NCBI GenBank assembly: GCA_973851085.1
Contig: OZ316775.1
Location: forward strand, 12,462,001-12,526,000
Direction of reading: 5' to 3'
DNA length: 64,000 nucleotides
Origin: Ptychomitrium polyphyllum
Taxonomy: Eukaryota
Shown: positions 30,801 through 43,013 of the stretch, piece after piece
How positions within the stretch are numbered: position 1 is the first letter of the stretch
Layout of the letters: each line of letters starts with the position of its first letter
The notes under the pieces: model-generated
What the model was told of the DNA's origin: nothing
Databases searched by the model: none
What the model saw: the letters and a program-made list of their open reading frames with translations, nothing else
Program-made: the position numbers and the translations under genes

Positions 30801-32177
30801 AAGGGATTAATAATGTTTCCATGATAAGAACACTTACAATTAAGGCGCCGTAGAAGACGATAATACCCCATTGATTGAAGAACATACCCTGCGCTCAAGG
30901 TATCGCGATTTAGTAGGCATTGAAGTTGCCCAACTAATGTACACATTTCCCGACAGAGACTCCATATATGCATGATGCAATTTTTATCTCATTTGTGGAA
31001 CATGAGAGGATTTGGGATTTAGAAACAAAAGTGCATGGAACATACAGCCATTTCTCCCATCTCTATCTTCTTCGAGATTTGAAACATGCATTCGTCACTT
31101 GATTTGTGCACAGGATGCGATTCCTCGATAGGAAAGTCATCCCCTCGGTGTCCAGCCTCTTCACTCAGAAGAGATTCGTCGAGCTCATCCTGAAAAAATT
31201 GATATTATGTCCCAGCTTAGAAGGTGCCAAACAATATTGAACAAAATAGATGTTAAACCAATGCAAATGACTGGTACATGCACTTGCAGGAATCTCATTT
31301 AAGTTTATTTCTGTTCAGCTATTTTCATAAGCTTCCATTGAACTAAATATCTATAATTTCAGCCATCGATAACTGAAAGAAAAAGGAATTCAAACTAAAA
31401 GAAGAAAAAAAAATGAGACTTCACTAAGACACACCTTGCTTTTGAGTTGGACGAAGGCATTTGCTGTGGCCATTGATTCCAGCACAAACGTCACACTTAC
31501 ATAGCTGCAAAGAAGAATGATGCAACCTGAGATGTAGAAAATATCTGAGAAAGGCCATACTTGAAAGTGATAATCACTCGCAGCACATGTACCGGACTGT
31601 CGTTGTAAACACTTAAAAACCATGTTCAAACGCGAATCAGTCAAGGAAGAATCAACATACCTGAGAAATGCAACGATTAAAACGAAGGAGGTGCATAAAA
31701 CCTGTCGACAGGTCCACAGTAACATACTTTTGTTAACATGATGCCCAAGCATATGTAACAGAATTAGTACATCTTGGTATCCAGCTAAGTTACTTTGGTT
31801 TTGAAAAGAGAATATTTAAATTGAAGCCAGGAACAGAAAAAGATAGTACAGAAGCACATTAGTTTTCTAAGAAAGCTCCAAATGAACAACGATCCACGGA
31901 AACAAGAGTAAGCGTTGAGCGAGGGTTGGTTAAGAACGTACCCAGCCTCCTTTCAGCAACACTGATGGAAGAGCTAAACAACCTGTACCTACCATCAAAT
32001 TAAAAAGGAAGCTGCAGGCACAACCCCATCCATCAGTACACATTCGAATCAATCAACCAAAAACTCAAAGATCGTCGTTTCTGCACAAAAATGAGATGCT
32101 CAAAGAAAGTCAAAGACGCACATAAAAGCCACAAACGGCGAATACTGAGAGCCATGACCAATCTCCGCGTTGGTCAT
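27875..32177 (-). CDS. TMEM104-like amino-acid transporter family (SLC38/AAAP superfamily) membrane protein, many short exons
   Basis: Spliced product MTNAEIGHGSQYSPFVAFIFLFNLMVGTGCLALPSVLLKGGW...SYVSVTFVLESMATANA...KKIEMGEMAGMFF...YFDFQKTKLLQ...LPNLFGGAVYSFMCHHSLPGIVTP...FPVFTLSSTFPMVSITLRNN...LVGFTGAFAG...NFHHSPF...KLPAA*. These motifs parallel animal TMEM104 (FNLIVGTG, FDVQKTK, VYSFMCQHSLPS, FPIIAVTLRNN). Confidence 0.88.
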
Positions 32178-33028
32178 CTTGAAGGCGCTTCCAATGCTCG
32201 CCCTCCTCTCGAACGAATTTCACAAGAGCCGCCACTGCCTACCTGATGCAACATCATCACAGATCAGTCTTCGTCAAGTGCATCTCTCAGTTTCCAACAG
32301 ATTAAGAAAATCTACCAATGGATTGGCACATTATCTTGCTATACAGATATGTCCACTGTGAGAAACGGACGGACGTCTCTCCACTATGAGGAAGATTGAG
32401 AGGTAGGACGGCAGTGCGAATTCGAAATTCACCTCCGAGTAAACAGCTTACAAGTCCTAAAGATCATGAAGGAGAAAATTTACAAGAACTGGGTTCGGAT
32501 ACATCTGGACTGTAAAGTTCCATAGTTAAGTGAGTTCAATCAGCGATGCAGTTCAGAGAATTGAGTACCTCATGCGAGCTCTATCCGAAGCTCGACGCGC
32601 ACGCTCAAAATGGTCGTGCGCAAGCTTGACTGAAGAAAAAAAGCCCGCTAAACTCTGCGAAAGAAAAACTCGAAGCCAACTCGATAGAAGTAGCGCTGCA
32701 GATGCATGAAGCTCACTTCTCGCCGCAATCTGATATCGATACGTACTTCACCAGCACCCAGCTACCTGTTCCGGATTCTGAGCCTCAACAATCCGCGGCG
32801 CATCGACGAGTGGCATGCAAGAGAATCTTGTGCTAGTCCAAGATCGAAATCGTGATGCCACATCAGACCATGCTCGACCACGTGGAGTAGAGTAGATAAC
32901 TCCGAAGTTCGGCGTCGACCCCACACTCAGAATCAATATAAAAGTGCCGAACAATGATACCCAAATGTCCTAGGTCATGATTCCCTTTTTTCAAGCTTCA
33001 TGTCACTGTCCAACATTTTCACTGGGTT

Positions 33029-33036
33029 TAGGGTTT
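33029..33036. promoter_or_regulatory. Telo-box in the short divergent promoter between the TMEM104-like gene and LYR/ASNSD1
   Basis: TAGGGTTT within GGGTTTAGGGTTT. Confidence 0.5.
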
Positions 33037-33222
33037 CGTAGGTTTCCCGAATTCGTACTGTCTTTTTTCATGATTGTTTGCACTGGTTACTCATTGCGGG
33101 TGCAAGAGAGCATCGCCTTTAGAGTCCAGTTGAGAGAAGGGTTATGTTTTGGGAAATTTGTTGAAGGTTTTGGAGTGTTTGTGTTTTGAGGACGAGGCCT
33201 AGCGGGTGGGTTGGTGGGCTTC

Positions 33223-33501
33223 ATGGGGAAAGGCTTGCTGTGGGCGACGGCAGAGGATCTGGCGAGGAGCAAGCCGCGCGTGTTGTCGCTCTACAGGCAG
33301 TATCTGAGGGCGTTGAATTCGGAGAAGCTGGGGCTGGGGTTGGCTGCGCAGGAGACAAAGAAGGGTCATGTGCGGGAGCTTTTTAGCATGGGGTCTGGGG
33401 AGCGGTCGTCGCATAACATTCGGGAATTGATCGATGCTGCCGAGTATACGCTGACGCTGCTGCGAAAGGGTCAGATTCCGCGTGAGAGCTACAACAAGTG
33501 A
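33223..33501 (+). CDS. Small LYR-motif (Complex1_LYR family) protein, 92 aa, intronless
   Basis: MGKGLLWATAEDLARSKPRVLSLYRQYLRALN...VRELFSMGSGERSSHNIRELIDAAEYTLTLLRKGQIP. It has the LYR tripeptide, a downstream Phe, and resembles the plant LYR family recalled as Arabidopsis At3g19508-like. Confidence 0.88.
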   Translation: MGKGLLWATAEDLARSKPRVLSLYRQYLRALNSEKLGLGLAAQETKKGHVRELFSMGSGERSSHNIRELIDAAEYTLTLLRKGQIPRESYNK

Positions 33502-33912
33502 TGGTCGCATTTCGAAGCCAGTCTACTTTAGGATTCTTTGTAAGCAATTTTCTTCTTCCATGCTGGAATTCTCCTAGTTCGGAACAAACTTCGATTGATG
33601 ATCCTGGATGAACAGTCATTGCTGGTTTTGACGTACACTGATTAATGCGCGAGAAGAACGTGTTGTGTACTTCTTGTAAAAATTTTATGGTGACTTTCTT
33701 CTGATCGAAACATTGGTTCCAGTTGTGGTGAATTCTAATGAATTTTTGTAGGACGTTGTTGGTGGTTTTTATCTGCTTAGGGTCTTTGCATGAAACTATT
33801 GATGTAGCCATCCAAACATATTGTATCACTTATTTTGTTCCTTTATTTTTCAATTCCCGTTGATGTTTATCCGTGTGTCTGTGGCAGAGTTAGTGATGCT
33901 TCGTTGGTCAGG

Positions 33913-36900
33913 ATGTGTGGCATCGCATTGAGCCTCTATGGGGTGCACATTCAGGGCCACTTAGGCGTCACAGCTGATGGGGAAATCCCTGCAGAGCAAG
34001 AAGAGGTGCTGAGTTGGACTGCTCATCTCCACACAGCTTCTCCATGTGGTCTTACATTTGGTACATTATGAATGCGATATCGTGAATGTTAAGAAATGGT
34101 TGTTGATCTAGACTGCGTTTTTCTGTCGCACAGCTGCTTTCTTATTGGTGGTATTGCTTTGTGGCAGGATTTGCATTTCGAGGGACCTAGCATTGCGGAT
34201 GTTTGTGAGGGACTGAAGCGCAGGGGCCCTGACACCCTAAACACAGAGACACTATTTGTCAAAGCCGTTCAGAGCTCCGGTGAGCTTCAGGTTGATGCTG
34301 TTGTACAGAACGCTGTGCGTGGGCCGTGCCTCAAGATCGATTTTGTTGGTGCCTTATTATCTCTGCGTGGCGATCGTCTAGTCTCGCAACCGCTCAAAGA
34401 TTCTGCAGGCAATATACTTGTCTACAATGGTGCGTTTACATCGTATCTATTATTTTTGAAGCTTGTTGCTAGCTTAGTTTAGTTACAAGGAATTTTCTGG
34501 TGCTTGATAGTGATGATTTTGTTTTGGTCTGTCAAATTCGTGGAGCAGGAGAAATTTTTGGAGGTCTTCAAGTGCAGCCAGGCGAAAATGACACTCTGCT
34601 CCTGATGGCAGCTTTGGGCACCTGCTGTGCTTGTGTCTGCCATGCCAAGCCCAATGACAATTTTTGTGTTTGCAACACACAGGAGATAAAAGGGCCACAT
34701 AAGACCGTGCAGGGGACACTCTCAGCATTGAGAGGGCCATGGGCTCTTGTCTACTGGCAGGTTAATGGCTTGCAATTTTGATTTTTTTCGAAGTTCTGTT
34801 TGTTCTATTTTGAGGTTTCAAGTTTTGTTTTATTGCAATAGCTGTGTGTTACTCCTAGATATTGTTGTAGATTCGTAATAATATTTGAAATAAGTCATTA
34901 CTTATTGAAAGTATCACATACGTATCACCATGGATCTAATCAGCGCAGATGCTAGAAAATTGGCAATGTAGTATGTGTACACTTGCACGTCAGCGTTCTA
35001 ACTGGCATGGTTTATCTGCTTTTTGTTTCAGGCTCAACATCAGCTACTCTGGTTTGGAAGGGATGTCCTAGGACGGCGAAGTCTTCTTTTGCATAGACCG
35101 TCATTATCAGATTCTCGTTTTCTTTTGGCGTCGGTTGCTCCTGCCGACAGCAGTGCTTCTACAAAAAGCAATGAAGATGCTCATTCATTCCAATATTGGG
35201 AGGAGTTGCAGTGTGGTATCCATAGCATGTCGTTGAATTCTAAGAAGCTCCAAGGTACGTTGAAATCTTCTTTTATAGGACTGACTAGACTGCATAAATG
35301 GGAAGATCCACTTCTGCGAAAGCTGGTTATGTGGGATCGGCAACATCTTGACCCTAGTAACTTCACAGACACCCTCTCCATCAAGATACCTCAGCAAGGA
35401 AAAGAGAGTACTGCTGGTGCTGTCCTAAAAGTTTTACGATGCTCGGTGAAAAAGCGAACCAGTGACATCAGGGAACGCCAGCAGGTCAGTGCTTGTAATT
35501 AGAATATCTAGCCAGTCATTTAATGATGCCGTATGAACGTCGATCAGTACTGATGAGCCTGTTTAGCTGTTTGGTTCTACAATACTCTTTCTAGTGCTAA
35601 TAATTTGTATGACTGTTTGGTTTGGCAGGAGTTTGCCCATCTGGGAGAGGATAATGTCTACACTCCTGTTGCTGTCCTGTTTTCTGGAGGCTTAGACTCG
35701 ATGATATTAGCAGCATTGTTGGACGAGTGCCTACAATCCGACTGTAAGTTGTGTGTCCATGATTTTTCCAAGAATTCTTTATTTAAATTAATCTCTGGAG
35801 TCATCTATATGGTCATGTTTGTAAGTTGCCGGGCAGCTTGAATACAAGATAGCGTTGTTTGCTAAGTAGTTGATATATGGTTGCAGATGGGATTGATCTT
35901 CTGAATGTCAGCTTTGAGGGTTCTACTGCACCAGACCGAATATCCGCCATTGCAGGTCTTGCTGAGCTTGAGCGGGTTTCACCTTCCAGAAGGCAAACTT
36001 CGCAAGCTTTCTATTCTCAGAAACACGAAATAAATTTGCTTTACATTGATTTTTAAACAAACCTAACTTCATTTTGCAAGTTTAAGGTCACCGACACCTT
36101 TCTCCTGCGCTTTACAGAAGTTACTGCCCCGTTTTTGTTTGATGGAGAATATGTGTACATGTATACCTCTGAGGTTCAGGTATTCGTGTATATGATTAGT
36201 CCAATCGCTGAAGGTGTGACTGACATCTGTCAGATCTTAATAATTGGCAGATGGAGATTGGTGAAGATTGATGCTGACCTAACAGCTATGGATTCATACC
36301 GTACTCATCTTCAGTCTCTCATATGCCCTTCCAATACATTCATGGTGAGCGTTTGAAATGTTTCTTTAGATCATGCTACTATTATATAGTGAGCTAGCAA
36401 GTAAGTTGTTTTCTTTATGTGAATTTGGTGAATGTATTCTCCCGAATCTTCAAAATTTACAAAATCTAAGTTTTTTGGAAGGATAAGTTCTTCCAGATAC
36501 GTTCGTGATTCAGGCTTCTGAATAGTTTAGATCTTGTGCAGGATCTCAATATTGGAATGGCTCTGTGGCTTGCGGCAAGAGGAGAAGGATATGTGTACGA
36601 TGCTCAGGAACGGCATGACTTAAATGAAGGCAGAACTGTTTACAAGTCCAGTGCACGAGTGCTGTTAGTTGGGGCAGGAGCTGACGAGCAATGTGGAGGC
36701 TATGGACGGCACCGCACAAAATATAGGCTTGGAGGGTGAGCCCATTGTTTCCTTCTTTTCATTAAAAACCAGTAAGCTAGCCTTTGACTGCTACGAAGAT
36801 TCAAGTATATTAAGCTCAGGTTTAAAAAACCTGAATCCCAAAGCTATTTTTTTACTAAAATATCAGTCTGAGAAAGAGTTGGCTGGACGGTGCAGGTGGA

Positions 36901-38104
36901 CAGCGTTGCAAGCAGAGATGAGAATTGACATGCAGCGCATCTGGAAGCGAAATCTGGGGAGAGATGATCGATGCATGTCCGATTTGGGTAAAGAGGTAAC
37001 GATGAAGAACGTAACTCTCAAGCTGTTGTTCCAGGCAGATGAGATGCGAGTCTAAGTGCTATGTTGAGCGGGACAGCGACAGATTACGTCAAGTTCTGTG
37101 GAATGTTGTAATTTTTTGTTTCTGACTGTGTATTGGCGTATTTGTTTGGCAGGCTAGGTTCCCGTTTCTGGATGAAGAAGTAGTAGAAACGCTTTTAGAT
37201 ATGCCTCTCTGGGATATCGTGGATCTACGGCTGTCTATTGGGAATGGTGACAAAAGAGTTCTTCGTGAGGTATGTCCGTTTGTTCCCGTATTACCATGTA
37301 TGACAACCGTGTAACTTACATGTTTAATTATGATGTTGATTTACCTCGTGAAAGAATACAATAGATTCTTTGACTTCTGAGACTTCTGATACACTCGTTA
37401 ACAATTTTAGTGAACTCTGCTGCTCAAACTATACATTGTTTGACTTGTGGAGTAATGGCTTGTACCAATTACAAGGGAGGTATTCTCGAATACTGTTGCT
37501 AACTTGCCGAAGTTGTGACCACGTGGCAAACCCCTAGTTAGACATCCGAATACCACTTGTCATTTCCAGCAGCTACATCACAAATTGGTAAACCTATGAT
37601 TTTATTGGTCAATCTACAATAGTTACCGACTCTTTGATACCATCTTAACTATTATAGATTACAAAACTAACAATCAATCAATTAGTTTTGATAATGATTT
37701 GCAATGGTAGCTATGATTTGTCAATCTACAGTAGGTATCATTTGAGACAGTTCTCTTGGATGTTGTTACTATGCAGGTGGCCATGAGCTTGGGTTTGCCA
37801 GGTGCTGCTGTTTTACCAAAGCGTGCAATCCAGGTATGGCATCTTAGGTTGGCAACCCTCTCATATTCGAGGTTATTTTGCGTTTACAAGAATATGTAGT
37901 CATTTTAAAGTTCGGGTAGTTTATCGGTGAGGAGCACAGATCGAAAGAAACGGATGAATGATGACACTTTTGGTATGCTCTTTTTTGCAGTTTGGGAGTC
38001 GTATAGCACGAGAATCAAACAAAAGGGAATTTGGAAGTAACCGTGCTGCTAATCAAGCATCTGCAGGCAGTGCTTTGCTGCCTGGTATTGGACGCTCAGC
38101 GTAA
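33913..38104 (+). CDS. ASNSD1: Asparagine synthetase domain-containing protein 1 (Ntn glutamine amidotransferase + synthase domain), ~12 exons
   Basis: N-terminal MCGI, LKRRGPD, LVYNGEIFGG, GPWALVYWQ, LWFGRDVLGRRSLL, VAVLFSGGLDSMILAALL, IDLLNVSF, DLNIGMALWLAARG, GAGADEQCGGYGRHR, RIWKRNLGRDDR, ARFPFLD, GDKRVLR, PKRAIQFGSR. Exons at approx. 33913-34005, 34168-34429, 34549-34760, 35032-35484, 35629-35743, 35887-35992, 36251-36344, 36542-36735, 36896-36995, 37153-37269, 37778-37833, 37991-38104. Confidence 0.95.
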
Positions 38105-40621: not shown

Positions 40622-43013
40622 TTACATCTCTATCCCTAGCTTTGAGACGGAATCAAAAGAGCAAAGAGGTGCCCATGGAGTGGAAGCCTGGACATCATTC
40701 TGCAATTGTGACTCCAGAGGCAAGATACCTGACTCAAAACAATCAAAGTGCTCCAAACTTAATGTTGCCGCTGCATGGTCTAAAAGCTGCATTTGTGAGT
40801 CCATGCTATGATCATAATCCCAGCCCCAAGTTGACCCAGGTAAAAAATGGAAATTTTCAGCTGCAGGATTATGCAAAGGACTGTGTAAAGGGAATCTCTC
40901 TAAAGAGCACAATACATTAAATGGTTGTTCAGAATATAGAACACTCTCCTCTGACTCAGGACACAGCTGCTCCAATCCCACTAACCGTTTGCCAACAGAC
41001 GATGATGTGGAGCTGTCAGGTGGCGGAGCTGGGCAGGGCAGGACTCCTTCCCCTTGAGAGATGCAGCTGCTGTCAAACTCCGAAGAGCTGGACCTGCTGC
41101 CGTAGCCCGTGGAGGAGGATGTCTCAGGGCTTGAGACTAGGCGCTTGTGATCTGCTTGCAGTAAAGGGTTATTTGTTTTCACCCTCTGAGCTGATGAACC
41201 ATGGGTCGTGGTGTTGTGATGATTTGAGAATGAGGGTGAAGACACCGTGGGGCGCTTGAGCTGAATGGAGTGATCTTCCAGTTGGTCAGACTTGTTAGGC
41301 ACGAGAGTGAGGCCCACTTTGTAGTTGAAGGGGTCGACGCCCATGCTTCTCAGCTTGCGTTTTAAGTGCGTGTTCCAATAATTCTTTATCTCGTTGTCAG
41401 TGCGACCAGGAATGCGCGCGGCTATCAATGACCACCTGCAAAAGAAGATTTCACTAGAATTTTACAATATATTGCAGTTTCTTGACTAATTAGTGTTAAC
41501 TCTTTAATCCATCACCCATGATGTCCCGAGAAACAGCTATTTCGGTTACTAAATACTCGGCAGTGTATATAGCCTGTGATATATCCTAACTCCATTCTTT
41601 CTGTTCCCTTTCTAAACTTTGGATATGAATCGACCTCACTGACAATATTACCCAGAAAATTAGCGCTCACATATTGTGTACGGTAGAGGACTGCATAGAA
41701 CACGATGTTCGTAAAATTGGCCAACCCCAGTTGTTTTGACAGCTCAAAGTAGTGTGAATGAGGAAACTTAACGTTGTGAAAGTAACAGGGAATGGCCAAC
41801 TCAATGAATATAGCAATGAAGCTTAATCCTGATTTTAAGAGTTTAAACGTTAGCCAATGATCTTTGAGGGCCTCGCACAACTGTTTCTCCAGGAATGCAA
41901 ATCCAGTTCACAGGAATCCCAGGTATTGAGTTGTTATCGAAATCCAAATAGTGCAATACGATTTGGTCCTCTACAGCATTAATCACTTTGTAAGTTCTTA
42001 AATGTATGAGGAGCAATACTTGTTTCCGAGGAGAGCGTGGAGGGTGAGGATGAGATTGTCCTCATCGTAGGAGAAGTTTCCCCGCTTCAAGTCTGGACGT
42101 AAGTAATTGATCCACCGCAGCCTGCAGCTCTTCCCACATCGAGACAGCCCTACATGCAAAATTATTACCCAGTTCAATTATATCAGTATCGACATCACCA
42201 CTTCATCAATACAATTAAATGCACACTGCATTTATTACCATCTCACGATTTACATGTTTTGAAATACTATTCACAGCTGATTTAAACTTAAAACATGTAC
42301 ATGGCGATGAGAAAGGCAGAGTTCAGCTAGCTCGCCAGTTGCAACTATAAATCAATACTGATCTCTCCCTCTCTCTTGACCCTGGTCCCTCACCTAGTCA
42401 GTCAAGTAAAAGTACTACTTTATCAGGTTAATTTTACCACCAAAAGACTGAAGTGTACTTTCATGTACAAGCTCCGTTACTAGCTCCTAGTTGACATCGT
42501 TACCAGTACTGCATATTCAATGAAGATGTTGCTGTATAGGCACTTCAAGAATCACATTTCAATTTAAAAATTACAAAATTGTTATCAACGAATCAATCAA
42601 ATCGCCAACGATGTTCAAGCAGATGCACATTCAATTAACATCGGGAGCACTATGGTGATCCCTTCATCAACCTGTACAGCATAATCTCTTACGAAGCTCT
42701 ATTCAAGTCCGGCTGCAAGTGGACAGGATCACAATCGCTTCAATCTCGTAGAAAATGAGGCGGAGAAAGACAGACTGAGGGGATTAAAGCAACCGAAGTC
42801 CTTCTGGGTAAAATGTCATATTTGAAAACAGCATCTTGATACAGTACCTGCAAGTTTAGGAATGAGACGCCAGTTGCCTTCGCCGCGCGCTTTGATGTAA
42901 GCAGACAGAATGTCGTCCTCGGCCTCCGTCCATGGCCCCTTGTTGATCACCCCCACCGCCGCCCCTCCACCTCCCCCGGTTCCTTTTCTCAAGCATGCTG
43001 GTGACCTCCTCAT
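40622..43013 (-). CDS. R2R3-MYB transcription factor (GIDP-like motif, subgroup 4/5-related); 3 exons
   Basis: Exons 43013-42848, 42149-42020 (canonical 130 nt) and 41435-40622 give KGPWTEAED...GEGNW...[27 protein letters not shown]...[38 protein letters not shown]. Confidence 0.96.

What the first reader, a model, noticed from the sequence alone, without database searches (positions are those of the whole stretch)
33223..34005. Apparently bicistronic LYR-protein / ASNSD1 transcript, paralleling human ASDURF-ASNSD1
Seen: a complete intronless 92-aa LYR ORF ends at 33501. A good donor (TTT|GTAAGC at 33540) follows 38 nt later. A pyrimidine-tract acceptor (GTGGCAG| at 33887) lies 25 nt before the ASNSD1 ATG (33913). 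The 411-nt gap is thus almost entirely one intron, leaving ~63 nt between the two ORFs after splicing and no obvious room for a LYR 3' UTR/polyA or an ASNSD1 promoter. The LYR ATG has a weak -3 context (TTCATGG) and the ASNSD1 ATG a strong one (AGGATGT). Established: human ASNSD1 mRNA carries a protein-coding uORF, ASDURF, a prefoldin-like PAQosome subunit unrelated to LYR proteins. Inference: a moss ASNSD1 has independently acquired a different functional upstream cistron, suggesting that ASNSD1 tolerates or benefits from downstream, dampened translation, or that it is functionally coupled to a mitochondrial LYRM factor.
Basis: partly seen in the sequence, partly recalled or inferred. Interest (0 to 1): 0.88.

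Follow-up and report, generated by a model that had tools for sequence, protein, structure and literature searches.

The report
Moss LYR–ASNSD1 two-gene transcript
In this moss a short LYR-motif gene sits 411 bases in front of an intact ASNSD1 gene, and evidence from related mosses suggests the two are likely copied into one spliced messenger RNA, a rare arrangement that would parallel human ASNSD1 but appears to have been broken up without harm in Physcomitrium patens.

Summary
The anatomy is confirmed: an intact 92-aa LYRM_2 gene, a 411-nt gap, and an intact 12-exon, 638-aa ASNSD1. No RNA run is listed for this organism. Indirect support comes from relatives. The pair has consecutive locus tags in both Ceratodon assemblies. 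Three assembled-contig lengths (2505, 2091, 4652 nt) are shared exactly by a moss LYR and an intron-free ASNSD1 product; chance is about 1e-4. So spliced contigs likely carry both ORFs. Against the stronger claims: the named donor is middling, with rivals. Five ATGs lie between the two starts, with no depletion. In P. patens the genes appear unlinked, and an ASNSD1 model carries a decayed LYR piece upstream. None of 37 angiosperm-type LYR loci has ASNSD1 nearby. Best reading: ASNSD1 borrowed the LYR promoter by spliced read-through in a moss ancestor. The link is likely architectural, not functional. LYR genes are known first cistrons in algae and humans; I did not find this pair in print.

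The parts
32937..32942 (+). TATA-like motif (TATAAA) upstream of LYR; candidate shared promoter
   Evidence: motif scan; none in the 33502-33912 gap; consensus match only, motif recalled
33030..33036 (+). telobox-like motif (AGGGTTT) in the LYR leader region
   Evidence: motif scan; none in the gap; consensus match only, motif recalled
33223..33501 (+). LYR-motif gene (PF23655 LYRM_2), 92 aa, no intron in the coding part; T at -3
   Evidence: 90% identical to the Ceratodon protein; three-helix model
33368..33430 (+). out-of-frame ATG ORF inside LYR, 20 aa
33388..33501 (+). in-frame internal Met of LYR in a strong context (A -3, G +4), 37-aa ORF; Met at this place in 11 of 13 moss rows
33434..33454 (+). 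out-of-frame ATG ORF inside LYR, 6 aa
33501..33503 (+). ATG overlapping the LYR stop (TGATG); opens 14 aa if 33540-33887 is spliced
33540..33887 (+). predicted intergenic / 5'-UTR intron, 348 nt; donor uncertain (rivals at 33690, 33728); holds 9 ATGs and six TGTA motifs at or inside it
   Evidence: sequence and matrix scores; not shown by RNA
33896..33931 (+). out-of-frame 11-aa ORF overlapping the ASNSD1 start
33913..38104 (+). ASNSD1 (asparagine synthetase domain-containing 1), 638 aa; exons 33913-34005, 34168-34429, 34549-34760, 35032-35484, 35629-35743, 35887-35992, 36251-36344, 36542-36735, 36896-36995, 37153-37269, 37777-37833, 37991-38104
   Evidence: homology-guided model, (545/638 identical to Ceratodon KC19_1G023200); PF00733 on two exons
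35993..36250 (+). GC-AG intron 6 of ASNSD1; a relative's product (P0071) ends by running into this intron

Best explanation
The LYR gene and ASNSD1 lie in tandem 411 nt apart, and ASNSD1 is likely transcribed from the LYR promoter as a spliced read-through mRNA that would carry both intact ORFs, an arrangement inferred to be old in true mosses (Bryopsida). Shown: the two intact genes, the intron-like gap, promoter-like motifs upstream of LYR and none in the gap, and adjacency in Ceratodon. Inferred: an intron across the gap removes LYR's polyA signals and joins the LYR exon to an acceptor 23-25 nt before the ASNSD1 start, as described for intergenic splicing in Arabidopsis. Inferred: LYR is the main product. 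ASNSD1 would be made at low level by ribosomes that slip past the weak LYR start, translate one of the short internal ORFs (6-37 aa) and restart; the RNA would be partly trimmed by nonsense-mediated decay. Inferred: the link is promoter borrowing rather than shared function, and after duplication in the P. patens line one copy kept LYR and the other kept ASNSD1 with a decayed LYR leader.
For: (1) Among Logan (sequencing-run assembly) records, 3 of 11 distinct ASNSD1 longest-contig lengths equal a LYR longest-contig length exactly: 4652 (P0007/P0070), 2505 (P0109/P0091), 2091 (P0110/P0071). All three LYRs are moss-type. Under a jitter null against all 20 LYR lengths, P(3 or more matches) = 1.1e-4 and 5e-5. 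(2) These ASNSD1 products are unbroken ORFs of 611, 611 and 375 aa, whereas the gene spans 4192 nt with 11 introns here. The 2505-nt contig leaves only 390 nt for both UTRs and the spacer, less than this window's unspliced gap of 411. P0071 runs through the first five intron positions and ends in the GC-AG intron, as an RNA would. (3) Consecutive tags in two Ceratodon assemblies: KC19_1G023100/023200 and M758_1G021900/022000. (4) A 764-aa member of the P. patens ASNSD1 cluster (P0082) holds a LYR N-terminal remnant before the ASNSD1 Met: 17 of 23 identical, E 1e-8. Comparing it with P0081 puts a junction about 8 codons before that Met, near the acceptor here (both are predicted models). (5) The base at -3 of the LYR start is a pyrimidine in 4 of 4 moss cases (window, P0003, P0005, P0006), against 3 of 34 unambiguous non-moss rows. 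Of 49 rows listed I dropped 9 ambiguous and 3 mis-assigned. By DNA, 28 of 31 angiosperm-type loci with a called start have a purine there. ASNSD1 has A at -3 here and in all 6 extended rows. The moss state is probably one inherited change. (6) TATAAA and a telobox upstream of LYR, none in the gap.
Against: The contig pairing rests on lengths only; contig ids, order and strand were not seen. A short-read contig does not show a single molecule, and overlapping transcripts would merge the same way. The 4652 and 2505 pairs are 99-100% identical, so the three matches are two lineages. P0070 is on 6 contigs but P0007 on 3, so some ASNSD1 contigs may lack LYR. Five ATGs intervene, two in strong context, and LYR's 2 out-of-frame ATGs equal the shuffle expectation (2.1 and 1.7). 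In algae one restored AUG cut ORF2 output to background (PMC11291117). In Arabidopsis the second ORFs of 7 of 8 tested read-through RNAs were rarely translated, and 202 of 271 second genes had their own start sites (PMC9768141). Ceratodon annotates two separate genes. The donor is uncertain.
Confidence: 0.55

Rival explanations
1. Two mostly separate, overlapping transcripts. LYR ends at a polyA site inside the gap. ASNSD1 starts from its own site inside the LYR ORF or the first part of the gap, with a 160-198 nt 5'-UTR intron from 33690 or 33728. Any full read-through RNA is a minor NMD target, and assemblers merge the overlap.
For: This is the commonest outcome at Arabidopsis read-through loci (PMC9768141). 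Better-scoring donors at 33690 and 33728 give introns in the 119-271 nt range of 10 of the 11 coding introns. The gap is T-rich with six TGTA motifs and an AATGAA at 33737. The five intervening ATGs make translation from the long RNA poor.
Against: No TATA, telobox or site-II match in the gap (weak, many plant promoters lack them). Full LYR and full spliced ASNSD1 fit in 2505 nt with only 390 nt to spare. The moss-only weak LYR start and the retained LYR remnant in P. patens fit dependence on the LYR 5' end.
Confidence: 0.33
2. Functional coupling: the two ORFs are kept on one mRNA because ASNSD1 must be dampened or co-regulated with a mitochondrial LYR factor, and ASNSD1 is intrinsically prone to such upstream cistrons.
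For: Human ASNSD1 carries ASDURF and is listed among 14 conserved bicistronic transcripts (PMC13303939). The weak-first, strong-second start pattern is conserved in mosses.
Against: Intact P. patens LYR and ASNSD1 have different longest contigs, 25,566,168 and 17,238,345 nt, and the LYR before ASNSD1 is decayed. 0 of 37 angiosperm-type LYR loci hit ASNSD1. ASDURF is reported to act independently of ASNSD1 protein (PMC11900008). Algal LYR ORFs lead unrelated partners: a transporter, an oxysterol-binding protein, a DTW protein.
Confidence: 0.08
3. A spliced LYR-ASNSD1 fusion protein: a donor at the LYR stop (33498) or inside LYR joined to 33887 keeps the frame and removes the stop.
For: 11 GT sites in LYR, including 33498, would fuse in frame with no stop at acceptor 33887; 33498 scores 2.7 against 2.0 for 33540. 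One P. patens model is such a fusion with a remnant.
Against: The search of longer proteins found 2 hits among 338 candidates, both LYR-only by Pfam (weak evidence by the tool's own note). None of 116 proteins checked (the profile-search hits plus P0054) matched ASNSD1. On the length-matched contigs the two ORFs were called separately.
Confidence: 0.04

Closest known systems
Arabidopsis read-through transcripts with intergenic splicing (Kurihara et al. 2022, PMC9768141; parts 1-2 of 6 of the text read)
   Same: Tandem plant genes, an intron between the first gene's 3' region and the second gene's 5' region, first genes enriched for organellar proteins, and a first-ORF stop upstream of many junctions.
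   Different: Most of those RNAs are rare and NMD-bound. Here the linkage appears conserved across several mosses and the joined form seems to be the assembled path in wild-type samples.
Green-algal bicistronic genes, including LYR-motif first ORFs (Gallaher et al. 2021, PMC7896298; Duenas et al., PMC11291117; passages read, supplement rows for the first)
   Same: Short first ORF (279 nt), short spacer, weak first and strong second start; LYR proteins are common in them and lead unrelated partners.
   Different: Algal loci are depleted of ATGs before ORF2; this one is not. No LYR-ASNSD1 pair: 'asparagine', 'ASNS' and 'PF00733' had 0 hits in the text or the 7 supplements searched.
Human ASDURF-ASNSD1 (seen in passages of PMC13303939, PMC11900008, PMC10893143; the original paper, Cloutier et al. 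2020, only as a reference)
   Same: Same downstream gene family with a conserved protein-coding ORF of about 90-100 aa upstream (ASDURF length recalled).
   Different: The upstream protein is a prefoldin-like PAQosome subunit, not LYR, so the origin is independent. The human case is supported by proteomics, this one by inference.
Human MIEF1 uORF (MIURF), a PF05347 LYR protein (Andreev et al. 2015, PMC4383229; passages read)
   Same: A LYR-family microprotein as first cistron of a bicistronic mRNA.
   Different: Different LYR subfamily (PF23655 here) and a different partner.
CDC26-TTM3 of land plants and algae (seen only as cited in PMC9768141 and PMC11291117)
   Same: Plant bicistronic mRNA with a small conserved first protein, subject to NMD.
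   Different: Deeply conserved. The LYR-ASNSD1 link seems limited to mosses and broken in P. patens.

Membership tests
LYR-motif proteins (PF23655 LYRM_2) | Profile match above the curated cut-off | tested here: met
   110.7 bits against 27; PF05347 only 18.9 against 24.8
LYR-motif proteins (PF23655 LYRM_2) | LYR tripeptide near the N-terminus, downstream Phe, three-helix bundle | tested here: met
   L23 Y24 R25 and F54 invariant in 34 rows; helices 10-31, 40-59, 63-81, pLDDT 74; top fold match ISD11/LYRM4, prob 0.99 but E 0.66
LYR-motif proteins (PF23655 LYRM_2) | Mitochondrial location, binding of acyl-carrier protein | not tested
   assumed from the family only
ASNSD1 | Orthology to annotated ASNSD1-like proteins, with GATase and Asn_synthase domains | tested here: met
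   545/638 identical to P0068 (PF00733, PF13537); the P. patens relative is named 'asparagine synthetase domain-containing protein 1-like'
Algal-type bicistronic gene (leaky scanning) | Both complete ORFs on single mRNA molecules | tested here: inconclusive
   length-matched spliced contigs in relatives; no long reads; no RNA holder listed
Algal-type bicistronic gene (leaky scanning) | Short ORF1 and short inter-ORF spacer | tested here: met
   279 nt; 411 nt genomic, 63-251 nt spliced depending on donor
Algal-type bicistronic gene (leaky scanning) | ORF1 start context weaker than ORF2 | tested here: met
   at -3 only: T against A; LYR keeps G at +4
Algal-type bicistronic gene (leaky scanning) | ATG depletion before ORF2 | tested here: not met
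   5 ATGs between the starts; out-of-frame count equals the shuffle expectation. The 3 internal ATGs in LYR are fewer than ASNSD1's 6.1 per 279 nt, but that follows from the protein's composition
Algal-type bicistronic gene (leaky scanning) | Both ORFs translated from the shared RNA; no monocistronic forms | not testable with these tools
   needs Ribo-seq, CAGE, long reads
Intergenic-splicing read-through transcript (Arabidopsis type) | Intron joining gene 1's 3' region to gene 2's 5' region | tested here: inconclusive
   sites present and intron-like; length budget of the 2505-nt contig fits splicing; no junction read
Intergenic-splicing read-through transcript (Arabidopsis type) | Rises in NMD mutants; first-gene polyA site inside the intron | not testable with these tools
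   needs upf1 or smg1 mutants and 3'-end sequencing
ASDURF-ASNSD1 orthologous locus | Upstream ORF encodes the prefoldin-like ASDURF | tested here: not met
   the upstream ORF matches only LYR families

The most novel reading that the evidence does not exclude
In true mosses ASNSD1 is made only from a bicistronic mRNA led by an intact LYR protein gene: a second, independent capture of a protein-coding first cistron by the same gene family that carries ASDURF in humans. It would be translated despite five intervening ATGs, so by restart rather than the ATG-free leaky scanning of algae, and P. patens would preserve the break-up of a bicistron by duplication.
Probability: 0.33. Interest if true: 0.72.

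Novelty: new member of a known kind. Interest (0 to 1): 0.5.

Why it matters
Few nuclear bicistronic mRNAs are established in land plants, and my searches found none described for this pair. A moss case would give a tractable test of how bicistrons arise (a small gene with a donor just after its stop lends its promoter to a neighbour) and how they dissolve (duplication with reciprocal loss in P. patens against the linked state in Ceratodon). It also allows a test of whether ASNSD1's repeated appearance as a second cistron reflects a need for low expression or only tolerance of it. Practically, annotation should treat the LYR ORF and ASNSD1 as possibly one transcription unit.

Tried and rejected
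Sequencing runs: no RNA holder listed. The two runs laid (one sample, one study) cover the stretch without joints, and one contig spans it whole and may be the window's source; this says nothing on expression. No whole genome is held for the window.

Locus searches: a metagenome scan with the single LYR protein confirmed none of 563 candidate stretches. The alignment scan returned 37 loci, all angiosperm-type by sequence and none moss, so no relative's DNA across the gap was seen. Scans of genome and viral contigs gave one weak short match each, L038 and L039, treated as chance. tblastx of the window's flanks against the 37 loci printed nothing.

Range of the linkage: no Sphagnum, liverwort, hornwort or fern LYR could be named among the 10 representatives looked up, so linkage outside true mosses is unknown. 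The family itself reaches Closterium and Galdieria.

Structure: sequence search of solved structures gave only weak hits (helicases at E 0.06-0.11, LYRM4 at E 0.23-0.39), and the fold search had none at E 0.001 or better. The nearest characterised LYR subfamily is not settled. No complex prediction was run, since I make no binding claim.

Other: the bacterial promoter/terminator scan is not relevant to a plant and showed nothing above shuffles. Earlier findings of the scan: none.

Paper searches for the pair returned 0 papers or papers whose listings did not concern it; subscription journals are mostly missing from the library. In the Kurihara supplements, 6 files (35,436 characters) had no hit for AT2G03667, LYR or asparagine, one file was unreadable, and I did not confirm the locus table was among them. 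At2g03667 as the Arabidopsis ASNSD1 id is recalled.
Full report
Observation. The window holds an unbroken 92-codon ORF at 33223-33501 that matches Pfam LYRM_2 far above its cut-off. It is 90% identical to a Ceratodon purpureus protein and 80% to one of Physcomitrium patens, so the source is very likely a true moss. Its predicted fold is three helices, most like ISD11/LYRM4, though not at a significant E-value. Downstream on the same strand, a homology-guided model gives an intact ASNSD1 of 638 aa in 12 exons (33913-38104), 545 of 638 residues identical to the Ceratodon protein, with one GC-AG intron. The gap is 411 nt.

The splice sites are unequal. The acceptor ranks in the top 3% of AG sites. 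The donor scores within the range of true donors but below rivals at 33690 and 33728, on a matrix trained on just 11 sites. A GTAAG that close to a given point occurs 5.6% of the time. The exact spacer is therefore 63, 213 or 251 nt. A TATA-like motif (32937) and a telobox-like motif (33030) lie upstream of LYR and none in the gap; these are consensus matches to recalled motifs.

Evidence from relatives for a shared RNA. No RNA holder was listed for this DNA, so the evidence is indirect. In two Ceratodon assemblies the genes carry consecutive tags. In the protein collection, three longest-contig lengths from sequencing-run assemblies are shared exactly by a moss-type LYR and an ASNSD1 product: 4652, 2505 and 2091 nt. 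That is 3 of 11 distinct ASNSD1 lengths against 20 LYR lengths, with a chance of about 1e-4 under a jitter null. The ASNSD1 products are unbroken ORFs of 611, 611 and 375 aa, so the contigs lack the introns. The 375-aa one ends by running into the GC-AG intron, as a partly spliced RNA would. On the 2505-nt contig the two ORFs leave 390 nt for both UTRs and the spacer, less than the unspliced gap here. Limits: I saw lengths, not contigs; two of the three pairs are 99-100% alike, so this is two lineages; and short-read contigs merge overlapping transcripts.

Start codons. The base at -3 of the LYR start is a pyrimidine in 4 of 4 moss cases and in 3 of 34 unambiguous non-moss rows; 9 ambiguous and 3 mis-assigned rows of 49 were dropped. 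It is a purine in 28 of 31 angiosperm-type loci with a called start; 6 of 37 loci gave no usable start. ASNSD1 has A at -3 here and in all 6 extended rows. This is the weak-first, strong-second pattern reported for algal bicistrons (PMC11291117, passages), but the moss state is probably a single inherited change. The other algal hallmark fails. Five ATGs remain between the starts after splicing, two in strong context and one opening an ORF that overlaps the ASNSD1 start, and the out-of-frame count equals the shuffle expectation. The internal LYR Met is kept in 11 of 13 moss rows. Efficient pure leaky scanning is thus unlikely. The intervening ORFs are short (6-37 aa), which from general knowledge permits restart at low yield.

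The link is not universal. Intact P. patens LYR and ASNSD1 have different longest contigs, which I read as different chromosomes. A 764-aa member of the P. patens ASNSD1 cluster, which I take to be an older gene model, carries a LYR N-terminal remnant before the ASNSD1 Met (17 of 23 identical, E 1e-8). The simplest reading is an ancestral linked pair that was duplicated and then lost one gene from each copy. None of 37 angiosperm-type LYR loci matched any of six ASNSD1 proteins. Of 23 loci measured, 18 hold more than 5 kb downstream. They are redundant, from a few species, and no angiosperm ASNSD1 served as positive control. Sphagnum and other bryophytes could not be tested.

Mechanism. I think it most likely (0.55) that ASNSD1 borrowed the LYR promoter: an intron across the gap removes LYR's polyA signals and delivers a two-ORF mRNA in which LYR is the main product and ASNSD1 a minor one. 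Intergenic splicing that suppresses first-gene termination is described in Arabidopsis (PMC9768141, parts 1-2 of 6 read). The same paper supplies the main rival (0.33): most such loci also have a polyA site inside the intron and a separate start for gene 2, the read-through RNA is an NMD target, and second ORFs were rarely translated in 7 of 8 tests. Functional coupling (0.08) is disfavoured by the P. patens and angiosperm results. An in-frame fusion (0.04) is possible on paper but was not found among longer proteins.

Comparison. Human ASDURF-ASNSD1 is an accepted bicistronic transcript (PMC13303939, passage), and ASDURF is a prefoldin-like protein with its own Arabidopsis gene (PMC10893143, passages), so the parallel is independent in origin. 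LYR genes are recurrent members of bicistrons: several subfamilies in green algae, leading unrelated partners (PMC7896298, passages and supplement rows), and the human MIEF1 uORF (PMC4383229, passages). The pattern may say more about small LYR genes than about ASNSD1. Searches for this pair returned no paper, other listings did not concern it, and the algal paper's text and supplements have no asparagine-synthetase partner. The library lacks most subscription journals.

Verdict. A real, conserved moss gene pair that probably shares a spliced transcript: a new member of a known kind, with an attractive natural experiment in P. patens. Single-molecule co-transcription and translation of ASNSD1 from that RNA remain unshown. 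Interest 0.5.

Noticed in passing
L028:299-1100 compared with L031:691-760: A grass-type metagenome-collection contig follows the LYR gene to a GT 46 nt after the stop and then switches to the leader and ORF of a protein that looks like a heavy-metal-associated (HIPP-type) protein (label recalled, not scanned). It could be a second spliced read-through from a LYR 3' donor or an assembly chimera; one contig only.
   Followed up: partly
P0116, P0118 (angiosperm-type LYR): These products run on past the usual end in a way that suggests an intron splitting the stop codon; several RefSeq LYR loci list four or more accessions for the same protein. A 3'-end intron may be a family trait that favours read-through splicing.
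   Followed up: no
window 33038-33190: Possible 5'-UTR intron of LYR (acceptor at 33190 scores 5.1; a GT at 33038 was seen by eye and is not among the top-scoring donors). It would remove the leader ATGs at 33070 and 33144.
   Followed up: partly
window 33888-33912: The ASNSD1 leader is stop-free in frame and similar in translation across the window, P. patens and P0071, more than expected of a UTR.
   Followed up: partly
window 31933-32052, minus strand: Weak match to the start of an amino-acid transporter family (PF01490, E 0.004, below cut-off); likely a divergent gene sharing the upstream region with LYR.
   Followed up: partly
window 40622-42177, minus strand: Exons of what looks like an R2R3-MYB gene converge on ASNSD1 (seen in ORF translations; label recalled).
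   Followed up: no
L029, L031, L033 (3' part), L019 (5' part): In grass-type contigs LYR is joined to an opposite-strand oligopeptide-transporter-like ORF downstream and an RRM-like ORF upstream (labels recalled), showing that assembled contigs can join neighbouring genes.
   Followed up: no
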